A stretch of DNA of 63,731 bases, filler included, from Hyphochytrium catenoides (GCA_900088475.1; 9 parts of 9 records of this genome joined end to end with filler, not necessarily neighbours in it), one strand, 5' to 3'; numbered from the whole stretch's first letter, positions 20,001 through 58,999 are shown. The notes: generated from the letters alone by a model not told the origin. A program made the numbers and translations.

Positions 20001-20456
20001 GAAGAGAGAGAGAGTGGGATACAGAGATTAAGAGAAGCCGAGACTGAGTGCATAATAAGAATTGAGGAGACATAGGAGCTATGTATGAGACAGAGAAAGA
20101 GAGAAAGAGTAACGCACCGCCACGAGCCTATCCACCGCAGGCTTGTTCTCCATGTATCTCACGGCCTCTAGCGCTTCCTGCTCTAAATAACGTTCGAGGA
20201 CTGTGCCAAACTGTAACCACGAGACAGAGAGAGGGAGAGGAGAAAGCACAGAGAGAGGGAGAGAGAAGAGAAGGCACAGAGAGGGAACGGGAGAATTACA
20301 GAGGAGAGGAGAGACGGGAACGAAGGGGAACATGAAGTAAGCCTGTCAGTGATTCAAAGGAGGACCACTGAGCTAGTACTTCAGCTCTTTAGAGACTCAT
20401 GCAATGAATGAGTCTCCATGGGTTTTCTCACACTCTCTCTCCTCTCTCTTGTTCTG

Positions 20457-20502
<46 letters not shown>

Positions 20503-23021
20503 TTGTCTCTCACCTGTATTGCAAAGAGCTGGAGGGCTTCCCTCAGTGCCTCACTACTATGACTGGGAAAGCTGCAAGCCAACTGGCGAGCTCGAGGAGT
20601 GTGGACTACCTGGGAGAGGGAGAGAGGGGAGAGAGAGGAGAGAGAGAGAGAGTGTATGTGTGTGTGTTGTGTTGTGTGTGTGAGAGAGAGAGAGAGTGAA
20701 ATAGTAAGCACAAGATTGACCTCGTGATGAAGGGAAAGGAGGGGGGGGGGCTCTGTTGCCATTATGGATGCCAACGCAAACTCACAGGATGGTGGAAATT
20801 CATACCTGATAGAAAGGCACACGCACGCACACACAGAGAGAGAGAGAGAGGGAGAGAGAGAGAGAGTGAACAAAGAGAGAGAGAGAGAGAGAGATAAAGA
20901 GAAAACACTGGGAGAAGCACGAGAGAAGAAAGAGGAGAGATTTAGAAACGGAAAGAGGAATGGAATGAGAGGATAGAGAAGGAGAGGACAAAGAGAGAAA
21001 GAAGAGAAACAGGGACAGACCTCAATAACAGCAATAATCTCCCCATTGGCGCCTCTGACCGGAAGAACAAGCAGCCTTGTTCCTTCTCCCTCACCCGTGA
21101 TGTCGACAATGTCGTTAAAATAAGGGTGTTTCCCTCCTCCTTCCTCTTCTATCGCTTGTCCCTCTCGGATCACGAGCCCTGGAAGGCGCATTTAGGCAAA
21201 TAACAAAATTAGAGAAAGAGAGAAAAGAGAGAGAGAGAGAGAGAGAGAGTTAGAGAGTATATAAAGAGTCCACTTCTTCCTGACATTCACGGGCTGCGGA
21301 CAAAAGTTCTCGTCGTCTCCTTTACAACCTTGTTTCTCCTTTCCCGTCTCTGTGCTCGGCTCTCTCCTTCCTCCTCATCCCTCCATCCCTTTCCCCGCTT
21401 TCTCTTTCTGTGTCTGTCTTCTTCTTCTCTATCCTTAGAGTAGCAACGGAATCCTCCCTCTTCTCTCTCAAATTGCAGTGGAAGAGGTTCTATTCTCTAT
21501 TTTCTTCTTCTCTCCTTGGTCATTCTCTCCTCTCCTCTTTCTCTTCTTATCTCTTGTCCGTCTCCCCGCCTCACCACAGAGTCCAGCGTTTGTATGATGA
21601 AGAGCCTTTTGATAAGGAGGAAGAGGAGAAGGTCCGTCTCCTCCCTCCAGGTCACTCGGTACCGCCCACCAGACAGACTTCCGGTCAGCAGTCACCACTA
21701 GAATCTAAGACCCAAGAGAGAGGAGAGAGAGAGAGGAGAGAGGAGAAAGAGAGAAAAAGGGAGAGAAGGAAGAAGAGGGAGAGAAGAGAAGAGAAGGAAG
21801 AGAAAGACCGATAAAAATGGGAGCAGAGAGAGGCTGGCCGTTAGTGGACAGAACTCCTGCCAATGATGCGAGACGAGGAAAGAGACATTGGAAGAGCAAC
21901 GAGAAAGAAGAGGCTGCCAGCACTCTTGCTTGTCTACGTCTACCTCTCTCACTCCCTTTCTGTCTCTCTTTTTTTTTCTCCTCTTTCTTCCTCTCTCTTT
22001 CTCTCTCTCTCTCTCTCTCTTACTCCCTCTGTGTGCACACACACTCCCTTCTCTTCTCTCTCTCTCTCTCTCTCTGTGTTTCTGTCACTTTCCCCTCGAT
22101 CTCTCCACTAATATCTTCTCCTCTTCTCTCTCCCGTTTTCTACCCCTCCTTTGTGGTAGGACACATACTTTGGCGTGAGTGCATCTGAGATTAGCCAGAA
22201 GAAAGTCCTCTGCCGCCTTGACGAGGCTGCACAGGTCGGCGCTGGCTCCGGAGTAGTGAGTCTTTCTCTTTCTTCTCTCTCCTCTCTCTCCCGTCCTCTC
22301 CTTTGCTGCTGTTTCCAGCTCTTCTACCTTCCCTTCTCTTTCCTTCTCTCGATCTTCCTCTTCTGATGGCTCTCTTCCTCCGTGGGCTTGTGCAGCAGAA
22401 GCCAGCGTTTGAGGAAGGTCAAAGAGCTCAAGAATTGCTCGGCGAAGATTGAAGATCCGCTGGCCAACCTGGGAGAATTGAAAGACAAGAGAAAGCAGAA
22501 GTAAAGAGCAAAAGCGTCACAGCAGAGAGAGTGAAGCATGAGGACGGCTGTGGAGGGTACGACGCCTGGCCAGAATGTATGTTGAGAAGGATAGAAAGAA
22601 ATAGGGAGAGGAAGAGGAGAAGAGACAACAAGGACGACACGGAGAGAGAGAAAGGCGGAGAGAGAGAGACAGGGAGAGAGAAAGACCGAGAGTGATGACG
22701 CGGGCGAAGGAAAAGGGTTGACAAAGACTTAAAAAGGGGAGGAAAGGAAGCAGCAAGACAGAACGAGGAAAGCAAGAGAACTTGGGCGAGACAAACAGAG
22801 AGAGAAGACAGAAAGAAAGAGAAGTCGTCAGACAGAGAGAGAGGTAGGTTTCTGCAATGGGAGCGGCTTTGATTCACCTTCTCACCCAGCGCCACCATCG
22901 CCACCCAGAGGCTACCGAAAGCCATCACCCGCTCATCTGAGTCCGAGAACCCATTGGCTGCATAAGAATTAAGTGCCTGATGGGAAGACACAGCGANNNN
23001 NNNNNNNNNNNNNNNNNNNNN

Positions 23022-23054
<33 letters not shown>

Positions 23055-23600
23055 GGGTGGGGAGAGCAGCAGCAAATTGCAGGGAGAAAGAACGAAGTCG
23101 CAGGGAAGTCAGAAGTGCGGACAGCCACGTGAGAACTAATTGGAGACAGCGAGTGGGCTGAAAGGAAGAGGCAGAAGAGGTACCGAGGGCAGCCGCTTAG
23201 GCCAGAAGATGTCGTAGGAATCCCGTCTCTCTCCTTCTCACTCCCTCCCGTAGAACATGTCTCTCCGCACTTTTCTCTATTGCTACTCTCTCTCTCTCTC
23301 TCTCTCTGCGCCTCTCTCTCTCTCTGTTTTTCTTTCTCTCTCTTGTACATCTTGCCTCTCTCGTCCTTCCGCTTCTCACCTGGATCACAGCCACGCACTC
23401 TCTCTCTTCGCCTGTTAAGACTGGGTAAGAAAGAAGAGAGGTAGGCACTTGACATTCCCTAATAATATCTATGGAGCTATCAAACTTTGCCTCTTCTCCC
23501 ATATTCTTGACTCTCAAAGTTTTTTTTGAAGAAAAGACAGAGCCTACAAGACCCTGAGAGAAGGAGGAGCGAGGAGGGATCCGCGTCTTGTGGGCATCCT

Positions 23601-23639
<39 letters not shown>

Positions 23640-23758
23640 AAACGCCGAGACGCCGTACGTAAAGTGAAGGAGCGTGAAGAAGAGGAGGAGAAATGACGAA
23701 GAAAGAGCGAGAAAGAGGGAGGAGGAGGGAAGCACAAAAAGTGGAGGCGGGGAAGATC

Positions 23759-23806
<48 letters not shown>

Positions 23807-26044
23807 TGTGGGAGATATACTACAACGCTCTCTTTCTTCCTCTTCCCTTCCCCCTACCTTTGCTTGAATACTTTCCCCTTTCTCTCACCTCCTCTCACGA
23901 TCTTTTGACTCTCTCTTATTTATGTCCACGCCCACAGAAACGCTTCTCTCGCTCTTCTTCTGTCTCTCTTTTCCCTCGCTCTATCACTGTCACTGTCTCT
24001 GCTCTTTTTCTCTTTCTTCCTTTCCTTACCAAGTGGTTCTGTCGGATCAACTGTTTTGCTATTGGATCCACAGTAAAGATGAGTACAAAGTCACAGCGCA
24101 GCGCGCGCTGCAGCAATTTCCCAAGGCTGGAAAGACACGAGAGAGAGAGAAGGAAGATCCGGGGGAAGGGAGTCAATCNNNNNNNNNNNNNNNNNNNNCG
24201 AGAGAAAAGACTCACCGCACAAAGAGCTCTCCAGGGTCGGAGCTCACGGGAAAGTCTCTGCAGAAGTCCACAAGAGAGAAAAGACGCGATTGAAGCTCAA
24301 ACTCGACAGAGTTCCTCCTTCGCCCTCCGACGCCAACACCACCAGTAGCTCCTCCTCTCTCTCCTGCACCCTTGTCTCCTGTCCCCTTTCTTTCTCCTGG
24401 AGTTGTGGCCCTCTCGCCAGTCTTTCCTTCTCCGTCTTTTGCTGTTTTCTTCTCTCCCTCTCCACTGGTTCTTCTTCCTTCTTCAGAAGAGGAGGACGTG
24501 CTGGCTCTCTCTTCTCCCTTTATACCTCCTCCCTCCGTCCCCGGTCTTCCTTTTTCCGTGCTGGGGATCCTAGAAGGGGGAGGAGGAGAGGAGGAGAGAG
24601 GAGAAGGTAAAGAAGAGAGAAGAGGTCTCCTAGGCAGAAGAGATCTTGAGCTATCTCTCTGTGAACTGCAGAGATCTAACTCTTCTTCCTTCGCTTCTAA
24701 CTCATTCTGAAGCCTCTGATGAAGATGGTAAAGGATCAAAAGAGAAGAGTTAAGCGATGGGCACGGGAGCGGGTAAGCGTGGCCGCGAGAGAAAGATTGA
24801 GAGAGACAGAGAGAGAGACAAAGAGACAAAGAAACAGAGAGACAGATACAAAGGTCGAAAGGAGGGATGAGGAGATAGAGAGAGAGGCCGTAAAGGGATA
24901 ACGAAAAGCAGCAGAGGGAACGAGAAGAGGAGGCAAGTGCAAAGGATAGAAGAGAGCTAGGGCAGAAAGTGCGCGTGAGAGAGAAGGAGAGACTTCAGAA
25001 AAAAAAAAGAAGGTCCAAGAGAGAGAAGAGGTGCACCTCAATGGTCCTCGTGAAGTCTTTCCTCTCCTCAAGAAGAATGCCAAGGGCTTTCCTAGTTTCT
25101 TTTAGCGCTCCGTTGAGATCTGTGCCTCCCGATTCTCTCTCTCTCTCTCCTAAAGAGGAGGAAGACTGGAGGAGAAGTTGAAAGGCTTCCGATAGCTTAG
25201 AGAACCGAGAAGACAATTTCTTTATCATGTCCCTTTGTCGTTCTATCATTTTGGCATTCTCTCTCGCCTCTCTCTCCGCCTCTGCTCTACCTTGTCCCTC
25301 TCTCTCTTCGTCCTTTGAGAGAGAGGAGACTCTTCTTTCCAGTTCTAGGTTCCTTTTCTGGAGCTCTGCATTAGCTCGAGAGAGCTGCAGGATCTTCTTC
25401 TCCAGCAGGTGAGAGCGGTTCTCTTTCTCTTGCAGCTGTCGGGTCATCGCTCTAAGGAAGCTTCCTCTGGTGCCCTCTTCCTCGCCCGCTTCTCTCTCTT
25501 CCCGGGTCTTTCCTCCTACTCCTTTCCTTTCTCTCTCTTTCTCTTCTGCTCCATTCTTGTTTCTCTTCTTTCGTTTGTCGATTTTCTGTCTCTTCCAGCC
25601 TTTGAGCTCTGGAAAGGATGGCCGCTGAGAGGTGTCATGAAGCTTTAAGTCTCTACTGGTAGGGGAAGGCGAGCGGAGTGCCTAAAAAAGAGCAAGAACG
25701 GAGGCCGTGTAAGAAAGGAAGAGAAAGAGCAACAACAGGAGTCGAGCCAGAAGAGAGCAAGAAAGAAAGAAAAGAAAGAGAAAAAGAGAAGTAAGAGAGA
25801 AAAAGAGTGTTTAGAGCAGTTAGTCGGCAAGCAAGTAGTCGTGAGGAGGAAGACAAGAGCGTGTGAAAGAGAGACATGAGATTAAGTCGGCAGAGAAGAA
25901 GAAAAGATTGCTTTGAACGAATGTGCCCCGCTCTCTCCCTCTTCCACTGGTACCTTGCTGGAACTCTCTCCCTCTCTTCCTGACTCTCTCTTGGTGTTTC
26001 ACTCTCTCATAATCTCCCCTCTTGCCTACATAGCTCCTCTCCTT

Positions 26045-26110
<66 letters not shown>

Positions 26111-26444
26111 CACTCTCTCTGCCAAAAAAAGCTAGGACAGGCCTCCGCTCTATCCGCTTCTCTGGCAAGTTACTCTGTCTTTTTACCTGCAAAGTGTGAT
26201 CTTCTTCTCCTCTTTCATCCTCTTGCTTTTCTTCTTCGACCTTCCTCTCCGTCTCTTCTCCTCCCTTCTCTCTCTCTTCTTCTTCTAGAGGGAGATCCTT
26301 CAGCGGGCCTGAGGGCTCTGAGGAGGGAAGGAGGGAGTTTTTCCGATTCTCTCTCATTCTCTTCGAGACGACAATCATGCCGTTCATTGGAGAAGAGCGA
26401 GTCTTCCATGACTCCGCTCCTCCCTCTTCTTGCTGACTGGTCAT
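17061..26444 (-). CDS. Coiled-coil + tandem GAF-domain + two IQ-motif protein (many exons, 5' end uncertain)
   Basis: Spliced exons give GAF-like motifs (QGLVGSVFSSKKTLRVKNMGEEAKFDSSIDIIRECQVPTSLLSYPV...VAVIQ|ALNS...GFSDSDE, and AGLCG|LVIREGQAI...HPYFNDIVD...LLVLPVRGANGEIIAVIEV). IQ motifs are AAVAIQARYRGYS (~18850) and AAVRIQSQYRGYQ (~18140). Coiled coil at 24995-25447. Confidence 0.7.
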
Positions 26445-27045: not shown

Positions 27046-27467
27046 CTCTCTCTCTCTCTCTCTCTCTACCCTAAATCGAGTAGGTACGAGAAGTGCATGC
27101 ATCGCCACTGCAGATGTGGGCAGAGACTGACCACAATGGAAGCTCTCTTCTCTCTCTCTTTCTCTCTCCATGATAAGAACTAAGTTCGTCACTAGACGCA
27201 GCCAGATCCCAGACAATTGGTCACGCCTCTTCAACTTCCTCTTAATTCTCTCTCTCTTACTCTCTCTCTCTTCTCTCTCAGTTCTCTCTCTCTCAGTCTC
27301 TCCTTCTCTTTCCATGTCCAACTTCGGTCAAGGCAGCGGAGATCCTGGACATTTGGCCTTTCAGAGACGACGACGGCGACCTGACCTGATATTTGAGCTT
27401 TCTCTCTCTCTTCGGTCTCTCTCTCTCTCTGCTGCCTCTTCTCTATCTTTTGTCTCCCTTCCTTTTC

Positions 27468-27500
<33 letters not shown>

Positions 27501-27570
27501 TCTGCCACGTCTTTCTTTCTGCGACTGGATTCATGGTATCAGGAATGATTTTATTCTTCAAGACGATCTG

Positions 27571-27625
<55 letters not shown>

Positions 27626-27823: not shown

Positions 27824-27872
<49 letters not shown>

Positions 27873-28357: not shown

Positions 28358-28589
28358 TTATTCTCTCTCTTCCTCTTTTCTCTTCTGATCCCTTTCTCCT
28401 TTTCCTGTCTCTTTCCCATCATCAGTAGGGGAAGCGGGAAAGGGAGGAGAGGGAGAGAGAGAGAGAGAAGAAGAAGAGGAGGAGGTTGGGATTTTTGACG
28501 GCGCGACTTCCGCTGTCCTTTGAACTATTGGACGGACGCCCCGAGAGAGAGTTTCTTCATAGATCTTGCGGAACCTCCAGATCTGTTTG

Positions 28590-28620
<31 letters not shown>

Positions 28621-29416
28621 NNNNNNNNNNNNNNNNNNNNNNNNNNNNNNNNNNNNNNNNNNNNGAGAGAGAGAAAGGAAGGAGAGAGAGTGTGAGAGTG
28701 AGAGCCAGAAGGGGAGAGCCAAAGAATTCAAAGAAGGCGAGATCAGCGATTGAGAGAAGAACAAGAGGGAGGCAGGACCAACAGGGAGAGAGAAAGAGAG
28801 AGAGAGAAAAAGAGAACACGGACCAAGAAAGAGGAAGAAGGAGAAACAGCAGGTACAGACACGACGAGAGGAAGGTAAAGAGAGAAGAGCGAACCATCAA
28901 GAGAGAAAGAGAAAGAGGTGAAAAGAGAAAAAAAGAGAGAAGACAGAGATGATACAGAGATTTCGAAACAGGAAGAATTCCTCGGGAGAGAGAGACAGAA
29001 GGAGAGAGAGAGAGAGAAGAGAAGCAAAGGCGGTAAACAAGGCGAGTAGTGCAGCAAAGAGACAGGGACAGAGAGTGGAGCGAAAGAGGGAAAGAAAGAG
29101 AGAGAGAGAGGGCCTTACCCCGGCGAGCATGACAACAGTGAGAAAGGCGATGGTGGAGATCATAACCATCGCTGTCCAGGAAATGGAAGAGATTCCCGCC
29201 TTGAAGACAATGAATTGGTTCACAGAGAGAAAGGTCAGGAAACAGGAGAGCGTCTCCAGATCATTGTGAAGTTTTTCTGTTCAAGAGAAAGAGAGAGAGA
29301 GAGAGAGGAGAGAGAAGGAAGGAGAGAGCGACATGGAGGGAAGGGAAAATAAAGCAGAAGGAGCGAACATGTTAGCAATCTACAACTCTAGGTCTTTCTC
29401 CCCGGAGCTGGTGCCT

Positions 29417-29458
<42 letters not shown>

Positions 29459-29643
29459 CCTTTCTCACATTCCCCCTGAGTTTCCCCTGTTCCTCTCCCC
29501 ATCTCCTCTCCTTTCCTCTCTCAGTTGGCCATGCTCATCTTTCTCTCTTTCTCTCCCTCTCTCTCTTTCTCTCTCTCCACCACAATATTAGCCTTTCTCT
29601 CTCTGCGTCTCTCCTCTCGCTTTCACTTCCTGCCACTGCCATA

Positions 29644-29692
<49 letters not shown>

Positions 29693-31326
29693 TTTTGCTG
29701 ACCTGCATAAGGCTGGACTCTGAGCTGGAGAAAGAGAGAGACCAGCCAGAGACACCAGAGCGTGAGAATTTTATTTTCCACCTTCCAGAGGCATTCCAAG
29801 GCATAAGCCATAATACCCTGCTGAAGGAGCTTGACCGCCACCCAGAATTGGAATTTCTCTTGATAGACGTGGGAAAGAGGCGCCAAGAGCTCTCTGAGGA
29901 TCTCACAGCGAGGGACACCTGCTTTGGGAAGAAGAGAGAGAAAGAGAGAGAGAGAGAGAGGGAGAGAGAGAGAGANNNNNNNNNNNNNNNNNNNNNNNNN
30001 NNNNNNNNNNNNNNNNNNNNNNNNNNNNNNNAGATAAGACGGTGAGCGAGACAATGTTAGAGCGTGGGTGAGGGGAGGGAGGATTTTAAACGAAGAGAGA
30101 GAGAGAGAGACACAGAGAGAGAGACAGAGAGAGACAGAGAGACAGAGAGAGAGAGACAGACAGAGAGAGAGAGGGAGAGACTGATGAGCCAGAAAGAGAG
30201 GGGAGAGAGAGAGACTGTTGAGCAAGAAAGAGAGAGCGAAAGAGAGACTCTTGAGATAGAGCGAAGAGAAGGGTAGAGAGGAGAGGAGAAGACAGACAGG
30301 GAGAGTAGGAGAGAGATGGTTTGAAAAGAGAGAGAATGAGAGAGAGACGAGAGGAAAAGGAGAGAGGAGCAAACTAAAGAAGGGAAGAAAAGTAAGAATC
30401 AAAGTGAGAGAGATTTGCGACAGAGAAGAGAGAGAAAGAGAGGGAAAGAGGAGGAGAGAGAGTCCCACCTCTAATCGTTTTCTCTCTTCTGCACACTTCA
30501 ACCTTCTGCTGAGAGCTCGCCCCAAGAGAAGCAGAAATACCTTCCTTCTTCCCTTTTTCCTCTCTCTCTCTTTTTTCTTTCTCTCTCTCTTCTCTCTCTT
30601 CTCTCTTTCTTCTTTGGCCGATAATGGTCCGGAAGGCGAGAGAGATGAGAAAAATGAAGAAAAGACAAAATGCCCAGAGAATGTAACCGAGAGAGAGAGC
30701 CACCGGATGGTCCGAGCATTTCATACTGGTGTCCGCTAGAAGGACCTAGAGAGAGAGAAGAGAGAGAGAAGGGAGATAGCAAAAGAAGAGAGAGAGAGAG
30801 AAAAAGAGAGAGAGAGAGAAAGAAAGAGAGAGAGAAAGAAAGAGAGAGAAGGAGAGAGGTGAGATACATCGAATCTTCTTGAATAATATATGTAGAGACC
30901 AAAAGAAATAGGTAAAGAGAGTAAGGGCGCGATGGANNNNNNNNNNNNNNNNNNNNNNNNNNNNNNNNNNNNNNNNNNNNNNNNNNNNNNNNNNNNNNNN
31001 NNNNNNNNNNGAGAGAAAGATGTAGCTATACCGCCGAGGATAGTAAAAAAGAGAAATACATGTATGGACAAGCGTCTCAACCCTCTACCTCTTGTCTCCC
31101 ACGGCAAGTCTCTCTCTCTCTCCTCTCTTTTTCTCTCTCTCTCTCCCACCTCCCTCTCTCTCTTCCTCTCTCTCTCTTCTTTCCGTCTTACCCTGTCCTT
31201 TCCAACCCTGATGCAGGTGGACATTTGAGAGGCCATGCGGAAGGCCGGGATAAAGAGAATGTAGACTAAGACATATACATAGATCTGGAGCGCCTATAGA
31301 GAGAGAGAAGAGAGAGACAGAGAAGG

Positions 31327-31365
<39 letters not shown>

Positions 31366-31466
31366 GAAAGCAGAAGGGGAAAGATAAGTATAAGTCTTGG
31401 AGATGGGCAAGATCCAAATGAGCTTCATCATCTCTCCTCTGAATATCCCTTTCTCTTCTCTCTCTC

Positions 31467-31498
<32 letters not shown>

Positions 31499-31605
31499 CC
31501 TTTTCGGTTCGACCTCTCTGTTTCTCTCTCGCCTTCTTTACCTGTCTCTATCTATCGTTGTCTCATCTTTTCTTTCCTCTGTCTTTGTCTCCAAGCCCCC
31601 TTCCT

Positions 31606-31646
<41 letters not shown>

Positions 31647-32060
31647 CTCTCTTAGACCTTGAGTTTGAGTTTATCTCTTGGCCTCCAAGAAGAGAAAGGA
31701 TCGGCAAGTTCAGCTCCTTCTGAGGTCTTTCTCTCAGCAGGAATGGAGAGGATGCTGATAAGGAAAGAAAGAGAGAGAGAGAAAGATATTAATTCAGGGA
31801 AAGAGAGAGAGAGAAGGACAGGCAGAGAGAAGGAGATAACTATGAGTCCAAGAAGATAAGGGTAATGAGGATAAGAGAAAGGAGAAGGAAATCGCCCCAA
31901 TGAAAGAAAACGGAGGAGACAGAAAAAAAAAGAGAGAGAGAGTGAGCGGCCAGACAGAGACAGAGAAGAGAAAGGGCGATGAGGCAAAGAACGCTAAGAA
32001 GGAGAGAAAGAAAGAGAAAGAGAAGAGGACAAAAAGAGCGTATCAAGCGGGAGAAGAATT

Positions 32061-32100
<40 letters not shown>

Positions 32101-32855
32101 AGTCTCAGTATCTTTGATTTTTTGACTTTCTCTCTTTCTGCCCACGTTCCTCCTCCCCAGGCGCCATAGATAGCGCACGAGAGAAAGAGAATGAGAAGGA
32201 GAAAGAGAGCACAGAGAGAACGCCAGGAAAGATGAGAGAGAAAGTCTCCATAGCCAAAGGCGCTGCAACCCTAAAGAGAGAATTTCAGAGAGAGAGAGAG
32301 AGAGAGAGAGAAAGAGTGAGTTCAGAGAGAAAGAGAGACAGTGAGGGCGAGTAAGAGAGGAGATCGGAGAGGGCAGAAACGGAAGAGAGAGACACAGAAA
32401 GCTGGACAGGTAAACGAAGCCAAGGGAGAGAGAGAAAGAGAGAGAAAAGAGACAGAACGTCGAACTCGAAGTGTCCAAGTTAAGGGAGAAGAGAGAGAGA
32501 AAGAGAGGCACTCGTAGGATCGAAGTAGAAGAAGGTGGCAAGAAGAGAGAGGAGAGAGAACCGGAAAAGACATCCATTCAGAAGAGAGAGATATGAAGAC
32601 GGAAGGGAGAGAGTGTGACACCGAGAGATGGATAGAGACGAGCAGCGCAGGATAATAATAATAGGGAAAGAGAGAAGATGGAGAGAGAGAGAGAGAGAAA
32701 GAGAGAAGGAAAGAGAGAGAGAAAGAAAGAGTGAGAGAAAGAAAAAGAGAGAAAAAGAAAGAGTGAGAGAAAGAAAGAAAGAGAGAAAGAAAGAGAGAGA
32801 AAAAGAAAGCGAGAGAGAAAGAAAGGGAGAGAGGGGAGGAAGAAAGATGTAGGGC

Positions 32856-32915
<60 letters not shown>

Positions 32916-33040
32916 AATCCCAAGTACTTTACCTTTCCTTTCACGAAAATCTTCGGGAAGTCTAAGAGTGTGACCCGCAGGAAAGGCAAGCCACCCTCGG
33001 ACGAAGAAGGAACAGCAGAGTTGAAGCTCACTTGCACTGC

Positions 33041-33073
<33 letters not shown>

Positions 33074-33211
33074 AGAGTCAGAGTCAAGAGGAGGGGCAAA
33101 TCGGAGAAGAGAGAAAGCGATTTAGAGGGAGAGGAAGTCTAAAGAGAGAGAAAGAGCAGCAACAAAGAGAGAGCGAGAGAACAGGAGGAAGAGGGGGTAG
33201 AGAAGAGAGGC

Positions 33212-33242
<31 letters not shown>

Positions 33243-33483
33243 AAGTGAGAGAGAGAGGAAAGAAAAAAAGAAAATCAGACAAGAGAGAGCTAAAACACAG
33301 CAAGCCACTGTTAGCTCTTTCGCACTCTGTCTCACCCTGTAAGAACCCGATAACTATGGAGATGAGAGCATTGTCTCTGATTCTGTCTGCCATCAACTGG
33401 AAGGCAAATGCGTAAGAGAAGATCAGGAGGCCGCCCAAGGCCATTGCCCAACCGATGTACCAGCTGCCAATGCCATCACACAC
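28358..33483 (-). CDS. Multi-pass membrane protein, protist TRP-like/GPCR-related C-terminal TM region (partial, multi-exon)
   Basis: In-frame spliced exons: WYIGWAMALGGLLIFSYAFAF...ISIVIGFLQ; VYILFIPAFRMASQMSTCIRVGKDR|VLLADTSMKCSDH; LSHVYQEKFQFWVAVKLLQQ; LQLRVQPYA|EKLHNDLETLS. This Cys/D-x-x-x-x-C, Y..W and QPY..N.LE..S pattern is typical of that family. Confidence 0.6.
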
Positions 33484-34356: not shown

Positions 34357-35016
34357 ATCCATCTATTGTCGAGGCTTCTAGCTCGAAGGCATCCGCGACC
34401 CCCGTGGGGCTGGGAAACTCTATGGTAAGGGAGATAAGAGACAGAGACACGCGCCAATGATACCGCATATAGAGTATAAAAAGGAGAGAAGGAGAGAGAG
34501 AGAGAGAGAGAGAGACAGAGACAGAGAGAGACAAAGAGGTCTAAGTTAGCACAGGGAACAAAGGAACAGCTAAAGAGAACATGACGGGTGACTGGAAAAA
34601 GGAGGAAAGAACCTAAGAGGATTAGGGAAAATAAAGAATAGATGTCGGAGAAGAGAGAGAGAGAGAGAGAGAGCGAGAGCGAGAGAGAGAGAGAGAGAGA
34701 GCCAAATTGCAATAGAGGTAGAAAGAGAGAGAGAGAGAGAGAGAGCTCACACCGCTCTTTCTCTCTTTCAGTTTGGTTCTCATCCATCCCTCGGCCTGCC
34801 TCCTCCGGTCCCTGGACAGCCTCCCCGCGCCTCGCTGCTGAAGGTCCCACAGGCTCCCCCGCCACCTCTCCCAACGCTGCCCTCAGGACCCATCGGCGGA
34901 CAGATCTCGCAGCCTAGAATCGCTGTGGAGCCGCCCAAGCAGAACCTCATGGAGGAGATCGGAGACAAGTAAGGGAGAAAGAAGAAAGAGGGACAAACGA
35001 GAGAGACAACGGGGAT

Positions 35017-35079
<63 letters not shown>

Positions 35080-35780
35080 AGGGAGAGAGAGAGAGAGAAG
35101 GAGGGAGAGAGAGAGGGTGAGAAAGAAGAGAGATGGATAAGAAGAAAAACACTTTTCAGAGAAGGTTTGTATGAAGGATAGACGACTGATATTATTGCAT
35201 TGTGGTTGCTTTTCTTCTTTCTCTCTCTCTCTTGTCTTCTTCTCTCGTCTCTCTCTCTGTCTCCCTCTGGTTATCCTGATTCCGGACAGACTTGTGAAGA
35301 CGGACGCGTCGGTGATTTTGAAAGTGATGCGGGTGCTGAACATCATTCTCTCTCTCTTCACCATCGCTGTCGGCATCGTAGCGATAATCTTCGGCTACGT
35401 CACTGGCGTCTCGACCTTCTTCGCTGTCTTCTACACCATGTCAGGACCCATCCTCTCTCTCTCTCTCTCGCTCTGTCTCTCTCTCTCTCTCGCTCTGTCT
35501 CTCTCTCTCCCCTCTCTTCCTTTTCCTCACACTAATTTCTCTCTCCGTTGTCTCTCCTCTCCTTTCCTTGTAGTCTCTCTCTTCTCCTCTTACTTTCTCT
35601 CTCTTTCTCCCCCAGTCCCTCTTTCTCTTTCTCTAACGTTTACGTTTGATCTTCTGGCTTTAGAATGTTTGGTATCCTCCTCTTGGCCTTTGAGCTGCGC
35701 GCTGAGACTGTGGACCAGACAATCAGAAGGAACTTCGGCTTTATGTACTCATACAAGGGCAGACTTGCCTTCATGATCTT

Positions 35781-35812
<32 letters not shown>

Positions 35813-36871
35813 ATGTGTGTGTGTGTGTGTGTCTTTGTTACAGGTTTCCCTTCCTTTTGGTTGTAAGTGTCATCGACAGTCCTCTTCTTTCCCTTTTCTC
35901 TCTCACCCGCGCACAACGGCAGATTCTCTCTCTCTCTCTCGCGCTCGTTCTCTCTCTCTCTCCCTCTTCTTTGCTCCCCAGTTACATGACCCTATGTCAT
36001 TGTGTATATCCATTTCCTGTCGGTTTTCTATTGCTACAACTCAGTCTCTTTGTCTCATGCTGTTAGTTTTTATCTAACCTGTTCATCTCTTTGGTGATCT
36101 CTTCTCTCTCTCATCATTCACTTTTCCCTGTTCTCTGCGTCCTCCAGCATCGCGATCTGGCCTCTGTCTCTCGGATGGCACAGCATCACCGTCACTTGCG
36201 CCGCACTCATGTTCTGCAACGCTTTCTTCAATTACTTTATCATCTACAAGGTAAAAGGGCACAGCCTCTCTCTCTCCGTTCTCTTGGCCCCCTCTGTCCT
36301 CTCCCTCCCTCTTCTCCCTCCCTCTTTACTATCTTTTCTCTCTTTCTGGCGCTCGGTTACCTTTTCGTCTTTTCTCTGTTCTGCGGTTGCACATTGACGG
36401 CTTTTCAAACCCTGCGACAGCTGCTTCTTCTCTCTCTTTGCGTCGGTGTCTGACTCTCTCTCTTTCTCTCTCTCTCTCACTTGAATGATCCACGGTCTCC
36501 TGCCTTTTCCCGATTCGGTTCTGGGTGACACCCTCTTTCCTTCGCTCTCATCTCTCCTCTCATTCCCTTTCTAACTCTCTTTCCTGTTCCAGCATCCTGC
36601 CTTCCAGCAGCTGCCGCCTCAGTATGTTCCTGCCCGCCAGGTAGATCACTGAGCTGAACTGTACGCTACCCTTCATATTGAGCTGACCGAGAATGGGAAC
36701 TAATCCCACTTCGTCTCTCACTCTCTTCCTCACCTGCGTCTCTCTCTCTCTCTCTCTGTCCTCTTCTTTCTTTTCTCTGTGTCTCTCTCTCCTATGTATC
36801 TGTCTCTCTGGCATGAATATGCTTATCAACAGGCCTCTGCTGGAGGAAAGATGCAAGGACAGACGCTGTAA
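34357..36871 (+). CDS. COPI-associated / Golgi TVP15-like membrane protein with Pro-rich N-terminal region (5' partial)
   Basis: Spliced product: ...MEEIGDK|LVKTDASVILKVMRVLNIILSLFTIAVGIV...VFYTI|MFGILLLAFEL...IRRNFGFMYSYKGRLAFMIF|IAIWPLSLGW...NAFFNYFIIYK|HPAFQ. FGFMYSYKGR-x-x-F matches the COPI_assoc signature. Introns 34969-35289, 35440-35662, 35781-36147, 36251-36592. Confidence 0.75.
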
Positions 36872-37289
36872 AGGCAACCTTCCGACATACTTCTCCTCTC
36901 TCTGTTCTCTTCCCTCTCTTCTCTCCTCTCTCTTCTCATCCCTTATCTAGCAGGAAGCAGAGTATATTAGCCACATAAATAACATTTCTCCTTAAGCAAA
37001 CTCCTCAGTCTCTCTGACCGAAGTTGCCTGTTCCTCTCTCTTCCCATTTCTCCTTATCCTTTCTAACTCACTGTGTCTCTCTCTCTCTCTCTCTCTCTCT
37101 AGACACTGTTTGTGGGTCTCTCTCCCTTTCCTCTCAGAGATTAGAGATAGAGTTAGCGATAACAGATAGATGGAGATAGAGACAGAGAGAGAGAGATCAA
37201 GAGAGAGATACGAAGAGAATAGAGAGGTCTTAGCTGAGTGCGTCGAAGAGCTGTCGGTAGAACAAGCAGTCTTCCTGGGCAATGATGCA

Positions 37290-43894: not shown

Positions 43895-43952
<58 letters not shown>

Positions 43953-47397: not shown

Positions 47398-47922
47398 TTA
47401 TTCATCAACGTTCTCGGTCTGCAGTCCCTTGAAGGAAGCAACCTCTACGTGCTGGACAAGGGTGTAGAGCTGCAGGGAGAACGTAAAACTCTATCGTCAG
47501 TCGCATCACAGGACAAAGGACAGTGCATCAACGCCTACCTTCTCCTTAGCCTCCTCATCCTCATTGCGTCTGCGAGACAGACGTACACGTACGCGGTAGG
47601 GCACGTTGCGGACGCCCTGGGACCAGAGGAACTTGTTCAGCTTAGTGTCAATGCGCACATCCTTTGTCCTCATAGCCTTCTCAGCGAAAGCCTTGATCTC
47701 ACGGATAGCGCGAGGAGCCTTCTTCTTGAAAGTACTAGAAAGATAGGACGTAGATAGTCATCAACAGAACAAGACATGGCAAAGATTAGCCACCTCAAAA
47801 CACAGTGAACTTCCAGTTTATCATAAGTAGACGTACACGCCATGGAGCCTCTTGTGGAGGTGGATGGTGTAGTCGCGGCTGACTACGTCCGCGGCCTTAG
47901 CCTTTCTGTTGTCCTTTGCCAT
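47398..47922 (-). CDS. RPL31: 60S ribosomal protein L31 (eL31), 3 exons
   Basis: [29 protein letters not shown]|[65 protein letters not shown]|[23 protein letters not shown]. Introns 47735-47836 and 47470-47538. Not present in the supplied ORF track. Confidence 0.97.
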
Positions 47923-48375: not shown

Positions 48376-50018
48376 ATGACAGAAGAGGTCAGAGTCTTGT
48401 TGAAAGAACCATTGCGGTACAAGCACTGGGCCTTGGGATGAGCCGTCTAGGGGCCTTAGGATGGAGAGGATGTCTTTGGTTGTTTAAACACCCATCTGGG
48501 TGCTCTTGCTCCCTCACCAATGCGGCCCGAAGTATATCATGTCATCGCTCAGCTCTGTCAGGAGTGTATAGAGCACAGGACGGTGCCAAGCTTCCCAGAG
48601 GTTGCGGAAAGGCTAAAAGAGAGTGGTCTAGGTAGAGATTGTATGCACCACATCTGCATATAGCCAAACTTTTCCCTGTCCTGCTAACAAGACCTAAATG
48701 TAGCAGATGCATGGGTGTCCATGGACACCGTGCTGAGCATTCGCGCGACCATCGCTCAGAGACACATCAAGCAGTCATATCACCTGCACCGCCGACCTGA
48801 AGCTTTACAGCTGTACATGGAGAGAGTTCAAGAAGGAGAGACTATCCTACAAGTGGCGCAAAGCGTCAGATTTTCCCCTTACCTTCTAGCCAGGTAAAGT
48901 GGAGGTTCTGCTACACGGCGCCGGGCTGGCCTTCTGGCTTATGTCTCCCTACCAAGACTGATTATAGAGAGAAAATATGATCTTCATGGCAAAGATCTGG
49001 CCCGAGTGATGAGGGATTCGAGGCTTATCATGGACGAAAAGCTCCGAGAGCAGGTAGTTCGAGGCCAAGACTATTCTCATCACGTCCACACGTCTGAGAC
49101 AGTTTTTGGCAGGTGGAGGCGTGTATTGAGCTTGACCAAGACGCATCGCCCTACATTGATACCCTGAAAGGTGTCATAGGAGAAGAGTATGAGACTCTGC
49201 TTTACCAGGAGCTTGAGCTGCGGCATATCCCTTTCGAGTCTGAAGAATCACTAAGGTTAGTCCCAGGTTCTCTCCAATCAAGAGGGCGCCATAACGTGCG
49301 GCAACGGGTGAGGTGTGGGCGGTCACGTTGCACTGTCTTCCCTGTGATATATCTAGCTGAAGCTTGTTGGAGTCTCTCGTGGGCCTGGGGGAAGTTGGCG
49401 GGGAAGAGATCTAAAGGGAGCGAGAACTATAAAGACGCGTAGGAGAGAGGGAGAGAGGCGACTGTCAAGGAACTCTAGAGATGACTGAAAGAGGAGAAAA
49501 GAGAGAGAGAGACGTTGGCTTCTTCCGCCGTCTTTAGTCTGTGCCTTGCTGCTCTCATCAGGGCGCGAGGGGTGGCCAAGACTCCAGACGCCAAGCTTCT
49601 GGTCCCCTTGGGCGTGACTCTGCCTGCGAAGAGCGATGGTCACATAGTGGAAGGGGAAGAAGAAAGGTCCTCAAAGAGCTACGTCGTGAACTGGATTGAC
49701 AGTAAGGCAATGTTTGGAGACTATGAGAGCTACTACGAAGACCACCTTCCACAGGTAAACAGCTGAGGCCTTGCATCTCATAGCTTAGGAAGACGGGCTC
49801 TGACCTGCTTGTGTGCCTCACAGATACGCAGCTATGTGCATAGATTTGGCCCAGGATTAGTGATCTACTGGTTTGACTTCGATGAGAGGCTTAACTCTGA
49901 TCCAGATGTCCTTGTCCTCCGCTCTTTCCCCAGCTCCTACTCCCTGCCAGCGCACGCCGAAGCATCTGGACGGCTAGGCGGAGTCCCAGCTCTCACGTGC
50001 GACATCTCCATACGATGA
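48376..50018 (+). CDS. CDIN1: CDAN1-interacting nuclease 1 (C15orf41 / TPD-domain) homolog, ~7 exons
   Basis: Spliced motifs FSPYLLAR, IGEEYETLLYQELELRHIPFESEESLR|ARGVAKTPD, VNWIDSKAMFGD, Q|IRSYVHRFGPGLVIYWFDF. Start codon is tentative. Confidence 0.88.
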
Positions 50019-51417
50019 CACGGCGCTCTCCAGGTCCCTGGATCTGAGGACAAGGCAAGAAAGAAGACTCTTAACGCTCTTACACATTTCTAGCAAAGAC
50101 CCAGTCTCCGAGCTCTACGTATCAGACTCCCAAGCCAGACGACATAGCGCTAGTGAAAGAATAGTGACCCGATGAAGGCAGCCTGTAAGCCGTGGTACTG
50201 ATGGCATTTCCAGTCCTGGCTGGCCTCCGAAGCTGAGGCTCTTGTGCGCGTGCCCATCTCGCTAAGCTCTCTCACTTCTCTGTCAACCCCCAATCCGAAG
50301 CCGCTGCGCCCTCTCTGCTCTTGGCTCTTTGCCGTGGAAGGAAGAGTTCAGCCAAAGGGAGATCATTGATACACCGAAAGCTAAGATCTGAAGGCACTCG
50401 CAACAATTTGGTTCCTTTCTTTCTTTCTCTCTCTCTCTCGCACCCTCCCACCTCCTCTCTCCTCTTCCTCACAAGCACGGGAGCCCTTTCAGCTTCTCTG
50501 CTTGGTCTACGATCCTTTGTGCAGACAATCGTCCGGGCCAAGAATGCTGGCGGGCCTCGGAAACACTTTCAAAGAAAGGGGAATACCGTTCTCACGGGGT
50601 TCCTCTCAGGCCAGGGGCACACTTTCTCTCTTTCCCTTGCCTTCCTCTCGCGCCTTCCTGGCCGCCTCCTTGCACACGCACACACTTTCTCTCTCTTTCG
50701 CGGTTGATCTCAAAGGTTCTCCTCGTCCCGTTATCGCCCCCTGTGAGCCATTCCTGGACCCGACATACGGAAGAGCCGACTGGTCCCGTATGAGGAGACA
50801 GAGAAATGAATATACGGGACAAAGAGGTCAGACAAATGCGGGAGGCTAAGAGAAACAAGGCAAACAGGAGACCAGGAAAGAGACGAAGAGAGAGGACACC
50901 AAGAAAAAGACAAATAGAGAGGAGATAGATTGGATGAAGTTGCGCCAAAGCAGCTTTGTTTACCTCCCGAGGCTCAGACATTATAGGAAGAGAAGACTCT
51001 TCTCTTAGTCTCTCTTTGCTTTGCAATCTCCACTGCCTCTCTCTCGCGTCTCCCATCAATACTATAACCCTGCGTTAGGATCTTCACGAAGATTGTCTGA
51101 TGTACGTTAGAATATAGGTAAGGGAAGCTCTCGAAAGCATCATGCCCTAGTAATAGGCTCAAAGGACAAGAAGACGGAGAAGAGCGATAAGTGGAGAGAA
51201 GAGAGCTCGGATAAGGGACGCCAGCCGCGAGCCTGGCGCACCACAGAGAGCCTAGCTTAGCGCATGATGGACCCAGCTCCAGCACCACTGCTTTCCTTTA
51301 GAGCAACAACAGACAAGAGGCAGGGCTCCCCAAGGCGTGGCGTCAATGTAACCTCACTGGAGGCCTCACCACCCATACAGCCCATCGATAAGAAAAGGAA
51401 AAGATATATAATTCTGC

Positions 51418-52560: not shown

Positions 52561-53488
52561 TCATTGCCCGTGGCTCATCTTCTCAGTGGCAGAAGAGTGC
52601 TCCTTCTTCCTCTTCCGCGCTGTCATCTCTTGGGCTGGGAAAGCTCCACCGCTTGCCGATGATCCTCCTCCCTCTCTCCTCACAGCGCCATCGTTGCTCT
52701 CTGCAAAGTGCGCGAGACAGAGGTTGTCTCTCTTCGCAAAGCGCTGACAGTTGGGCCGCAGACATTTTCTCTCTATCGTCGAGTGATGCCGCTTGCACAT
52801 CCCTTCTCGCACTGCGTGCTTTGTACAGCCTTCCACCCAGCAGCGGAGAAAGCCTCCGTGAGCTTTACAAAGCCCTTCTTTCGCAGCGAAGGTGGCGCAG
52901 CCTGGAGAACTGCAGATCTTTCTTCTTCCTAAAGCAGCAGCAGCAGCTTTCTGTGTGCCTTCAGAGTTCTCTATGTCGAGAGAAAAGAGAGAGAGAGAGA
53001 AAGAAGTGAGAGAGAGAGAGATTGATCAGAAGAAGAAGAAGCGATATAAATGCATCTCATCCGCCAAGGACAAGGGGAAGGAAGAGACCGAAGAGGGAGA
53101 GAGATAAGAAGATAATTGACAGAAGAGGAGGCAGTCAAGAGGGGAAAGAAGGGGAGACGGAGAAAGAAAGAGAAAGAGATCAGAACCAAACATCAGAAAT
53201 AAGAGGGAGAGGAAAAGTAGCACAGCGAGAGAGAGAGAGAGAGAGATAAAACCCCATCTCTCCTTAACGTTTTCTTTCCTGTCTGTCTCACTAGGTCTCA
53301 CCTCTCTCGTCACTGCTGCCATCTGAGTGTTTCTTGCTCTCTAACTCAGGAGCGGACTTGGCTACTCTCTTCTCTCTCTCCTTCCTGGCTTGTCCGTCTC
53401 TTCTCTCTGTCTTCTCTCCGCTCTTCTCCATCTTCACGTCTCGAGAACCTTTCTCTTCCTTGGGTGACGTCTTCGGTATGGGCGCCAT
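52561..53488 (-). CDS. WRKY19-like zinc-finger repeat protein (3 x C-x4-C-x9-C-x2-H)
   Basis: Exon 1 MAPIPK...SDER, intron 52971-53301, then exon 2 CSSPGCATFAAKEGLCKAHGGFLRCWVEGCTKHAVREGMCKRHHSTIERKCLRPNCQRFAKRDNLCLAH. Confidence 0.8.
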
Positions 53489-57062: not shown

Positions 57063-57862
57063 GAGAGAGAGAGAGATGGGGGGTGTAGAACTGGATTATT
57101 ATATTGGAGATGTGACGAGACTTGCTACTTCGGTTACTGAAGGTAGGAGAGGAGACACCATGGGGAATGAAAGAGAGAGTGCGGAGAGAGGAAGAACAGT
57201 CTGCCCAAAAGAAAGGAGAGAGAGAGGCAGAGAAAAAGAGAGAAACACAAAGAAAGAGAGAGAGAGAGGCAGAGAAAAAGAGAGAGACACAGAGAAAGAG
57301 AGAGAGGAGAGAGAGAGAGAGGCTGATGAGGAAGGAGAGACGAAGCGTCACCTCCTCCGTTTCATCGGACGTGTGGAGGCGGGAGGACGGGAAGTGAAGA
57401 GGCGGGGGGAAGATGCTGCCTTCGAAAAGTGCAGGTGCAGGAGGGAACCTCCTTTCTCTCCTCTGTCCTTACAAAGCCTTCAGCTCCTATCTTCTCCCAG
57501 GAAGGAGAGAGAAACTCTCAAGGAGAGAGACAGAGCGAGAGAGACAGAAGCGGTAGAGAAGAAGAGAGGAGCGAGAGAGAGGGCGACAGAAATGTACCAG
57601 TAGATGGAGAGATGGAGGGAGAGAGAGAGAAGGAGAAGAGAGAGAAGGAGAGAGAGAGAAGGAGAAGAGAGAGACAGAGAAAGAGAGAGAAAGAGAANNN
57701 NNNNNNNNNNNNNNNNNNNNNNNNNNNNNNNNNNNNNNNNNNNNNNNNNNNNNNNNNNNNNNNNNNNNNNNNNNNNNNNNNNNNNNNNNNNNNNNNNNNN
57801 NNNNTTCGCAAGTTCACAGGCCTCACTGCTGTCTCCCCTTTCGGCTCTCGTAAAGGCCTCGG

Positions 57863-57941
57863 ATTGGCTGAGAAGAACTGAAGTCTTTGTTTTGATTGGC
57901 TCATTACACGAATGAGAGTTGTTCCGACGTTCTTATTGGCT
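57863..57941 (-). promoter_or_regulatory. Cluster of three CCAAT boxes (ATTGGCT on + strand)
   Basis: ATTGGCT at 57863, 57895 and 57935 (spacing 32 and 40 bp), ~360 bp upstream of the ATG at 58297. Confidence 0.55.
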
Positions 57942-58038
57942 CAGCCAGAAGCTTGTGATAACTAGAGGTATCTGGGGTTGATAACTAATGTAGATGGAGA
58001 GGAGAGGAAGGAGCTGTAAGAATTGGTTCTCCCCCGCA

Positions 58039-58086
<48 letters not shown>

Positions 58087-58296
58087 GCGCGAGCTCTCCG
58101 TCTCTCCTCTCCTCTTGTCTCGCTCGCTCTCCAGCGCTGCCTCACACTCTCCCTGACACTTCTTGAAAGAAGAACCTCTGCCACCACCATCTCCCGCTCA
58201 CTTTCCTGTCGTCTTTTCATAGCAACACCTTCCTTTTCCCTCATTCTAAAGCCCTTTCCTCTCTCTCAGAAAGCTCGCCCTTCATCTACTCCCGCC

Positions 58297-58538
58297 ATGC
58301 CGTCCAAAGCTCCTGCTGTCCCCCGGCGCGAGCGGCGGCGGGCAGAGAAGCTTCAGAAGAAGCAAGCAAAGCAGGCGCGGCATCAGGGGAAGAGACGACA
58401 CGAAGAGGCCAAAGAAGAACCGCAGCAGCGCCAACAGCCGTCCACTGCCCGTCATGCAGGAAGCAAGCGTCGAAGGTAAGAAGAGGAAAGACAGATGCAG
58501 ACAAGCTACCTGCCTGGCAGAGCAGAGCAGAGAGAGAG

Positions 58539-58600
<62 letters not shown>

Positions 58601-58999
58601 CAAGATTCAAGGTCAGACGAGACGCATGAGATTTAGGGAAGATGTTGAATGACCAAACTGCTTGTCTTCTTATCAGCAAACATCTCTCTTTATGATCTTT
58701 TCTGCCCTCTCCTCTTCTCTCTCTCCCTCTTTCTCTCCCTCTTTCTCTCTCTCTTCTCACTATCTTCCTCTCTCTCTCTCTCATTTCTCTCTCTCTCTCT
58801 CTCTCTCTCTCTTATATTCTGTCTCTCTCTCTTCCCGGTTTCTCTTAAAACACAGAGTGGAGGCTGGAAGCCGGACCGGCCAGCCCAAGCCCGAGAATCT
58901 CTTCACAAAGTTTCTGGCCGAGCAGCGCGAACTACAAAGAGAGAGAGACGGAAGAGGAGGGGGAGAGAGAGAGAGAAAGACGGACAAAGAGCAGGAGCT
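58297..58999 (+). CDS. N-terminal fragment of a basic, probably nucleolar protein (possibly NOM1/SGD1-like)
   Basis: MPSKAPAVPRRERRRAEKLQKKQAKQARH...SKRRR|VEAGSRTGQPKPENLFTKFLAEQRELQRE, with intron 58476-58855. The family call is weak. Confidence 0.5.

What the first reader, a model, noticed from the sequence alone, without database searches (positions are those of the whole stretch)
20211..58855. Bipartite introns with 5' (AG)n and 3' (CT)n complementary tracts: candidate fold-back splicing system
Seen: in introns whose ends I could fix from in-frame exon joins, a recurrent class has an AG-rich/(AG)n tract after the donor and a CT-rich/(CT)n tract before the acceptor on the sense strand. Examples are 20211-20513(-), 21179-21574(-), 22977-23379(-), 23599-24029(-), 29277-29702(-), 30746-31191(-), 31294-31657(-), 34969-35289(+) and 58476-58855(+). 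These come from four contigs, four genes and both strands. Other introns are CT-only; I found none with the reverse order. Several donors in these genes are off-consensus (GTCTAA, GTCAGC, GTCAGG). Known: teleost introns use complementary 5' (AC)n / 3' (GT)n repeats to bring splice sites together and reduce U2AF2 dependence. Inference: (AG)n:(CU)n pairing could be an independent version of this in a protist, or could reversibly mask the polypyrimidine tract.
Basis: partly seen in the sequence, partly recalled or inferred. Interest (0 to 1): 0.78.

Follow-up and report, generated by a model that had tools for sequence, protein, structure and literature searches.

The report
AG-then-CT microsatellite introns in a protist
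About half of the long introns modelled in this protist's repeat-rich genes start with an AG-rich stretch and end with a CT-rich stretch that are predicted to fold into a hairpin, but the two halves are not matched to each other, so the pattern is most likely a repeat expansion shaped by ordinary splicing rules rather than a new fold-back splicing system.

Summary
All nine listed introns are GT-AG, purine-rich at the start and pyrimidine-rich at the end. In 44 modelled introns, the 10 with both repeat types all run AG then CT; 24 are CT-only, 3 AG-only. Twelve are bipartite by composition and are predicted to fold strongly.

The zebrafish-like reading fails the tests I could run. Arm lengths are anti-correlated (rho -0.68). 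An AG arm pairs no better with its own CT arm than with another bipartite intron's (p 0.94). Pairing across the exon wins in 5 of 9 cases. Donors are no weaker. Long introns are 12 AG-led against 11 CT-led. A relative's orthologous intron is about 75 nt.

Most likely a strand-neutral AG/CT bloom filtered by splicing: the last ~100-230 nt stay AG-free behind a predicted distant branch point, and the hairpin is a by-product. Against this, one null model expects 5.7 internal CT-to-AG switches and none occurs. No RNA spans a bipartite intron, branch points are unmapped, and there is no genome-wide sample.

The parts
25682..26186 (-).
   Evidence: AG-free zone 227 nt
23599..24029 (-). Bipartite intron inside first GAF-like repeat; 214/217 nt
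22977..23379 (-). Bipartite intron; 159/244 nt; 25-nt assembly gap in the CT tract
21705..22168 (-).
21179..21574 (-). Bipartite intron; 306/90 nt
20211..20513 (-). Bipartite intron; 91/212 nt
31294..31657 (-). Bipartite intron, gene C; 235/129 nt; donor GTCTAA
30746..31191 (-). Bipartite intron, gene C; purine domain 117 nt; 74-nt assembly gap
29277..29702 (-). Bipartite intron, gene C; 324/102 nt; donor GTCAGC
34425..34771 (+).
34969..35289 (+). Bipartite intron, gene D; 181/140 nt; position matched by a ~75-nt intron read through in relative P0121
58476..58855 (+). Bipartite intron, gene K; 182/198 nt
17060..26408 (-). Host gene A: coiled coil, two GAF-like repeats, two IQ-like motifs (IQ label recalled); 17 modelled introns, 6 bipartite; start not fixed
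   Evidence: open spliced frame; repeats align to each other, score 62.5 vs shuffled max 52.5 of 300; Atlas GAF clusters 0.92, a lead only
28358..33482 (-). Host gene C: C-terminal part of a multi-pass membrane protein; 8 modelled introns, 3 bipartite
   Evidence: open spliced frame; unnamed eukaryote clusters 0.94
34422..36872 (+). Host gene D: COPI-associated protein; 6 introns, 2 bipartite
   Evidence: PF08507 E 6e-4, below curated cut-off
58297..58999 (+). Host gene K: N-terminal part, no Pfam hit; 1 bipartite intron
49256..49561 (+). Counter-example: intron with an AG run near its 3' end, a short pyrimidine tract and no CT run
47470..47836 (-). Control: two short repeat-free introns (69 and 102 nt) of the L31e ribosomal protein gene, skipped in contigs of two public runs

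Best explanation
These are most likely ordinary GT-AG spliceosomal introns, lengthened by a genome-wide bloom of AG/CT repeats whose orientation is then likely filtered by splicing, with the predicted AG:CU hairpin as a by-product. Shown: AG/CT repeats dominate the window on both strands (114 AG and 103 CT runs, 3 GT, no others); each long intron ends in a pyrimidine domain with few or no AG dinucleotides; its 5' part is AG-led or CT-led about equally often. Inferred step 1: short ancestral introns (60-100 nt, as in repeat-poor genes here and in the relative) grew by slippage on both sides of a mixed core. Inferred step 2: the branch point sits in or near that core, about 70-200 nt from the acceptor, and the spliceosome takes the first suitable AG after it, so only the CT orientation survives downstream. 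Inferred step 3: upstream either orientation is tolerated, but AG runs after a CT run are avoided, probably as cryptic acceptors or because each 5' domain grows from one seed. Inferred step 4: when the 5' domain is AG it can pair with any CT tract nearby, own or upstream, and the cell tolerates or prevents this.
For: Repeat census. First 60 nt after the donor: 11 purine-led, 16 pyrimidine-led, 6 mixed of 33, p 0.44 against 50:50; 12 of 23 long introns bipartite. No positive length matching: run lengths rho -0.36 (p 0.24), domain lengths rho -0.68 (p 0.015), switch point from 0.26 to 0.93 of intron length. No partner specificity in a 12x12 swap: p 0.94 for energy, 0.74 for alignment score. Cross-exon pairing exceeds own pairing in 5 of 9. 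AG-free zone 100 nt or more in 10 of 12. Four of 11 informative bipartite introns have no adenosine at -45 to -15 (23379 set aside because that region is a gap). Branch-point-like adenosines lie mostly 69-167 graph steps from the donor in the predicted fold (one at 29), while donor and acceptor lie 3-32 apart, so the hairpin would not join donor and branch point. Relative's intron about 75 nt. In other eukaryotes, 6 of 10 hand-picked donor-(GA)10 introns have no (CT)4 run. Scanning to the first AG after a distant branch point: PMC1431707, Background section read.
Against: A run-gap model from 28 non-genic run pairs expects 5.7 CT-to-AG switches upstream of the AG-free zone and 0 occur in 41 pairs (P 0.002); a window-sampling null expects only 0.8 (P 0.43). 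So the AG-free zone alone may not explain the polarity. Single decoy acceptors (pyrimidine run plus YAG) persist in 14 of 44 introns, which weakens cryptic-site avoidance. Branch-point-like pentamers are no commoner than same-composition controls. Eight of 12 introns fold 2 SD or more below half-wise shuffles (8 shuffles each). The last 100 nt are more pyrimidine-rich in bipartite introns (p 0.022), though not after length matching (p 0.27). Own arms beat CT-only 3' ends in 78 of 132 swaps. n is 12, and assembly gaps at repeats blur tract lengths.
Confidence: 0.6

Rival explanations
1. Functional intron bridging: AG and CU arms pair in the pre-mRNA, bring the splice sites together and help splice-site pairing, as (AC)m-(GT)n repeats do in teleosts. 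Because all arms are near-interchangeable, no partner specificity would be needed.
For: Strict order in 10 of 10; strong predicted folds with donor-acceptor distance 3-32 steps; purine domain begins at the donor in 11 of 12; no internal reversals; weak trend to stronger CT tracts (odds ratio 2.8, p 0.29). Lin et al. note that six repeats suffice in simulation and that orthologous introns often do not keep the repeats (PMC4691745), so weak length matching and a short relative's intron do not exclude it.
Against: Anti-correlated arms and an AG domain of 321 nt facing 26 nt; cross-exon pairing not avoided; CT-only introns of equal length in the same genes; pairing would hide the pyrimidine tract; predicted branch points far from the donor in the fold.
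Confidence: 0.15
2. The purine domain is a protein-binding element next to the donor (GA-rich sites bound on RNA by SR-type or hnRNP proteins, or on DNA by a GAGA-type factor) that aids 5' splice-site use or chromatin state, with no pairing needed.
For: Domain starts at the donor in 11 of 12; donor-(GA)n introns without CT partners occur in other eukaryotes. GA-binding factors are recalled knowledge; plant BPC and Drosophila GA-element papers seen only as search listings.
Against: Donors of bipartite introns are not weaker (6.9 vs 6.6 of 9 matches, p 0.20); half of long introns lack the domain; AG runs are as common outside genes.
Confidence: 0.12
3. Regulated masking: the AG arm sequesters its own or the upstream intron's pyrimidine tract and tunes intron retention or exon skipping.
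For: Predicted pairing covers 13-25 of the last 30 nt; the AG arm has two competing partners of similar energy.
Against: No transcript data; host exons are constitutive-looking parts of folded domains; no partner specificity.
Confidence: 0.08
4. The introns derive from an inverted-repeat element (introner or MITE) or from fold-back duplication, the two arms being terminal inverted repeats.
For: AG-then-CT reads the same on both strands; lengths cluster at 303-505 nt.
Against: Masked arms share no more complementarity within an intron than between introns (7.0 vs 7.3 nt); no blastn hit between any two of 44 masked introns at E 0.01; an intron already exists at this position in a relative.
Confidence: 0.03

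Closest known systems
Teleost (AC)m-(GT)n structured introns (Lin et al. 2016, PMC4691745; parts 1-4 of 7 read: abstract, results, discussion; supplements not read)
   Same: Complementary dinucleotide repeats at opposite intron ends; much lower predicted folding energy than other introns.
   Different: Dimer is AG/CT. In fish 61% lack a pyrimidine tract, co-occurrence is across introns and avoided across exons, and the exemplar branch point lies in the last 35 nt. Here the 3' repeat is the pyrimidine tract, cross-exon partners are always present, arms are unmatched, and branch points are predicted to be distant.
Distant-branch-point introns with long AG exclusion zones (Gooding et al. 2006, PMC1431707; outline and Background read)
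   Same: Long AG-free pyrimidine region before the acceptor, AG at normal or high frequency upstream of it, branch-point-like motifs near its 5' edge in 8 of 12.
   Different: Here the region upstream is an AG microsatellite domain complementary to the zone; the layout is the norm in repeat-rich genes, not a rare class; branch points are unmapped.
Human (GGG)m-(CCC)n and lamprey repeat introns (same Lin et al. paper)
   Same: Complementary low-complexity ends with a computed structural signal only.
   Different: Other motifs; much smaller energy gain in human.
Introner / MITE-derived introns (recalled, no call)
   Same: Inverted-repeat-like ends and a narrow size range.
   Different: No shared sequence between introns and no specific arm complementarity.

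Membership tests
Teleost-type repeat-bridged introns | Complementary dinucleotide repeats at opposite ends of the intron | tested here: met
   10 of 10 introns with both run types are AG then CT; dimer differs from AC/GT
Teleost-type repeat-bridged introns | Co-occurrence across the intron above independent expectation, longer with longer | tested here: not met
   Fisher p 1.0 (40 nt) and 0.29 (100 nt), n=33; rho -0.36 and -0.68; small sample
Teleost-type repeat-bridged introns | Cross-exon complementary arrangement avoided | tested here: not met
   Upstream intron captures more of the AG arm than the own arm in 5 of 9
Teleost-type repeat-bridged introns | Lower folding energy than other introns and than shuffles | tested here: met
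   mostly compositional, and swapped arms do as well
Teleost-type repeat-bridged introns | Pyrimidine tract often absent | tested here: not met
   Last 100 nt median 85% pyrimidine
Teleost-type repeat-bridged introns | Structure shown by probing, rescue by compensatory change, U2AF2 independence | not testable with these tools
   Needs bench work; no genome held to inspect U2AF genes
Distant-branch-point (long AG exclusion zone) introns | AG-free zone of about 100 nt or more before the acceptor | tested here: met
   10 of 12 bipartite introns, median 127 nt
Distant-branch-point (long AG exclusion zone) introns | Branch-point consensus near the 5' edge of the zone | tested here: inconclusive
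   YTRAY in zone in 8 of 12, but such pentamers are not above controls; no adenosine at -45 to -15 in 4 of 11 informative
Distant-branch-point (long AG exclusion zone) introns | Branch point mapped 100-400 nt from the acceptor | not testable with these tools
   Needs lariat sequencing
Introner / MITE-derived introns | Specific terminal inverted repeats | tested here: not met
Introner / MITE-derived introns | Families of similar introns at unrelated sites | tested here: not met
   No hits among 44 masked introns; window only
GT-AG spliceosomal introns | GT and AG ends removed from mature RNA | tested here: inconclusive
   Shown for two short control introns; for bipartite introns only open frames and one homolog

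The most novel reading that the evidence does not exclude
A protist has independently evolved repeat-bridged introns in which an (AG)n arm pairs with the (CU)n pyrimidine tract itself, either across the intron to pair splice sites or across the upstream exon as a co-transcriptional switch, in about half of its long introns; donor-(GA)n introns in high-GC metagenome eukaryotes would be a second case.
Probability: 0.2. Interest if true: 0.75.

Novelty: new variant of a known kind. Interest (0 to 1): 0.38.

Why it matters
If the best reading holds, it is a clean natural example of splicing signals imposing polarity on a microsatellite bloom, and of a spliceosome that copes with 100-bp predicted hairpins over its pyrimidine tracts. 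It also supplies the null model that any claim of repeat-bridged splicing must beat. If the novel reading holds, structure-assisted splicing by simple repeats would have arisen outside chordates with a different dimer. I found no paper describing AG/CT bipartite introns in six searches, in an open-access library only.

Tried and rejected
No whole genome is held, so no genome-wide test and no look at U2AF genes. No RNA holder was listed on record for the searched stretch; reads were obtained only over 44900-50100, which holds no bipartite intron. Single-exon homolog searches for genes A and C found nothing at E 0.01; weak evidence. A metagenome scan with P0121 found no locus, so its DNA was not seen and the 75-nt length is inferred from its translation. 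Pfam gave no hit for the GAF-like or gene C exons. A first model with an extra exon at 20805-20721 was dropped because a single 21020-20610 intron keeps the frame; that intron holds a strong decoy acceptor. AG tracts as coding sequence: rejected for most, although an AG-rich tract at 53488-53302(-) is exonic in another gene. Inverted-repeat origin rejected. Weak-donor compensation rejected. Left out of the 44: the intron 53301-52971(-), a probable truncated AG-led intron ending at 33483(-), and the unmodelled genes of contigs 1-12514(-), 27046-28355, 43717-44900 and 57063-58000. Several run-order tests left out genes I, J and R and introns under 150 nt (n=32-33). Earlier scan findings: none on this genome; two from other genomes.
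Full report
Setting. The window is nine contigs joined by N-padded linkers, about 49% GC, with several contigs ending in AG or CT runs. Dinucleotide runs of five units or more are almost all AG (114) or CT (103), with 3 GT. The intronless MFS transporter at 45296-46735 has its best named relatives in stramenopiles and chlorarachniophytes at 30-36% identity and one unnamed relative at 53%. I infer a SAR protist without a close sequenced relative in that search. No whole genome is held.

Observation. All nine listed intervals are GT-AG with a purine-rich first quarter (0.80-0.93) and a purine-poor last quarter (0.04-0.25). I built spliced models by coordinates. Gene A is open over 1395 codons with 17 introns and gene C over 474 codons with 8; genes D, M and K are also open. 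The two GAF-like repeats of gene A align to each other across four bipartite-intron junctions (score 62.5; 300 shuffles mean 29.3, max 52.5). A relative of gene D (P0121, 86% identical) aligns with a 25-residue insertion exactly at the 34969-35289 junction and diverges at the next donor. That confirms the position and implies an intron of about 75 nt there, against 321 nt here. Contigs of two public runs skip two short GT-AG introns of the L31e gene (69 and 102 nt), so the organism splices conventionally. No RNA evidence spans a bipartite intron.

Census. Of 44 modelled introns, 10 carry both AG and CT runs of four units or more, all AG first; 24 carry CT only, 3 AG only, 7 neither. Switches between runs are 10 AG-to-CT and 0 CT-to-AG inside introns, against 4 and 7 outside modelled genes (p 0.004). 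Read-through meets a stop inside the purine domain in 9 of 12. The polarity is real.

Pairing. Bipartite introns are predicted to fold at -52 to -208 kcal/mol, far below CT-only introns. Eight of 12 lie 2 SD or more below half-wise dinucleotide shuffles, on only eight shuffles each. But the arms are interchangeable: in a 12x12 swap the native pairs are no stronger (p 0.94) and sum to less than random pairs (1311 against 1397 +/- 45), and masked arms share no specific complementarity. Against 3' ends of CT-only introns the own arm wins 78 of 132 swaps, a mild trend the other way. Run lengths correlate at -0.36 and domain lengths at -0.68, partly because total length is confined to 303-505 nt. 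In 5 of 9 cases with a modelled upstream intron the AG arm pairs more with that intron's pyrimidine tract, across the exon, than with its own. Lin et al. report that zebrafish largely avoids this arrangement (PMC4691745). Donors are not weaker in bipartite introns.

Mechanism. The 5' domain is purine-led in 11, pyrimidine-led in 16 and mixed in 6 of 33 introns (p 0.44), and 12 of 23 long introns are bipartite. That is what a strand-neutral repeat process gives. The 3' domain is always pyrimidine and is AG-free for 100 nt or more in 10 of 12. Four of 11 informative bipartite introns have no adenosine at -45 to -15, so their branch points are probably distant. Gooding et al. describe such introns, where the acceptor is the first AG after a branch point 100-400 nt upstream (PMC1431707, Background). 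An (AG)n tract cannot persist in that zone, which fixes the order. In the predicted folds the branch-point-like adenosines lie near the loop, mostly 69-167 steps from the donor, while donor and acceptor are 3-32 steps apart. The first splicing step needs donor and branch point together (established chemistry), so this hairpin would not help it.

Results against this reading. One null expects 0.8 reversed 5' parts and sees 0 of 32, but a run-gap null expects 5.7 switches and sees 0 of 41 (P 0.002). Something beyond the AG-free zone may keep the 5' domain uniform; I propose cryptic-acceptor avoidance or single-seed growth and tested neither directly. Single decoy acceptors survive in 14 of 44 introns. 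Branch-point-like pentamers are not enriched over controls. Bipartite introns end slightly more pyrimidine-rich (p 0.022; p 0.27 after length matching). Lin et al. also show that short repeats suffice and that orthologous introns need not keep them, so bridging is weakened, not excluded. The sample is 12, and assembly gaps sit in the repeats.

Other genomes. A metagenome scan for a donor followed by (GA)10 gave 119 loci. A (CT)5 run followed in 4 of 56 loci with enough sequence. Ten hand-picked loci look like coding exon-intron-exon units; in L079 the flanks hit adjacent parts of one Pfam profile (positions 42-68 and 70-108). Their introns run GA tract, then an AG-free pyrimidine- or A-rich end, and six have no (CT)4 run. 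So AG-led introns occur elsewhere without a CT partner. L071 and L092 do show AG followed by a long CT tract.

Comparison and verdict. The introns resemble teleost (AC)m-(GT)n introns in layout and predicted folding but fail three testable defining features, so they are not filed there. They fit long-AG-exclusion-zone introns on sequence, with branch points unmapped. Six literature searches found no description of AG/CT bipartite introns, and the Lin main text has no mention of AG, GA, CT or TC repeats under those terms; its supplementary tables on other motifs and species were not read and may bear on this. Verdict: real, apparently undescribed intron architecture; most likely a by-product (0.6); functional pairing in some form about 0.2; interest 0.38.

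Noticed in passing
window 47288-47966 (-): Ribosomal protein L31e gene; near-identical spliced contigs in two runs from other studies (X4, X5), so this organism or a very close strain occurs in other samples.
   Followed up: yes
window 44900-50100: Runs X1 and X2 both show two versions at many sites and small indels, which suggests a heterozygous diploid or mixed strains.
   Followed up: no
window 37400-43616 (+): Long repeat-poor stretch with broken frames that look like copia-type LTR retrotransposon integrase and reverse transcriptase (read by eye, label recalled); an AG-rich tandem block at 39540-39790 separates two parts.
   Followed up: no
window 13318-15344 (-): Intronless ankyrin-like repeat gene with one frameshift and one internal stop; possibly a pseudogene or assembly error (ankyrin label recalled).
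   Followed up: no
window 52564-53488 (-): Gene with WRKY19-type zinc fingers (PF24906, E 1e-13); its first exon is AG-rich coding sequence, and its intron 53301-52971 has only a short purine head.
   Followed up: partly
window 1-12514 and 45000-50100: Repeat-poor regions with short or ordinary introns sit beside repeat-rich genes, so the AG/CT bloom is patchy by region or gene.
   Followed up: partly
window 20610-21020 (-): CT-only intron holding a strong decoy acceptor at 20806 and a consensus donor about 22 nt later; a micro-exon is possible.
   Followed up: partly
window 19127-19136 (-): A 10-nt micro-exon is needed to keep gene A in frame in my model; unverified.
   Followed up: partly
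L020, L025, L038, L041, L056, L066, L079, L100, L103: High-GC eukaryote contigs with 120-185-nt introns of the form donor, (GA)n, CTCAA/CTCAC motif, AG-free end; a nitrite-reductase-like exon in L038 suggests an alga (inference). A better system for a genome-wide test.
   Followed up: partly
L061 downstream of the match: An (AC)n run followed by a (GT)n run and CAG, the teleost-like layout, in a metagenome contig of unknown origin.
   Followed up: no
window 61627-63339 (+), 48400-50020 (+): Methyltransf_16 gene with three CT-type introns and a TPD-domain gene with mostly 59-69-nt introns.
   Followed up: yes
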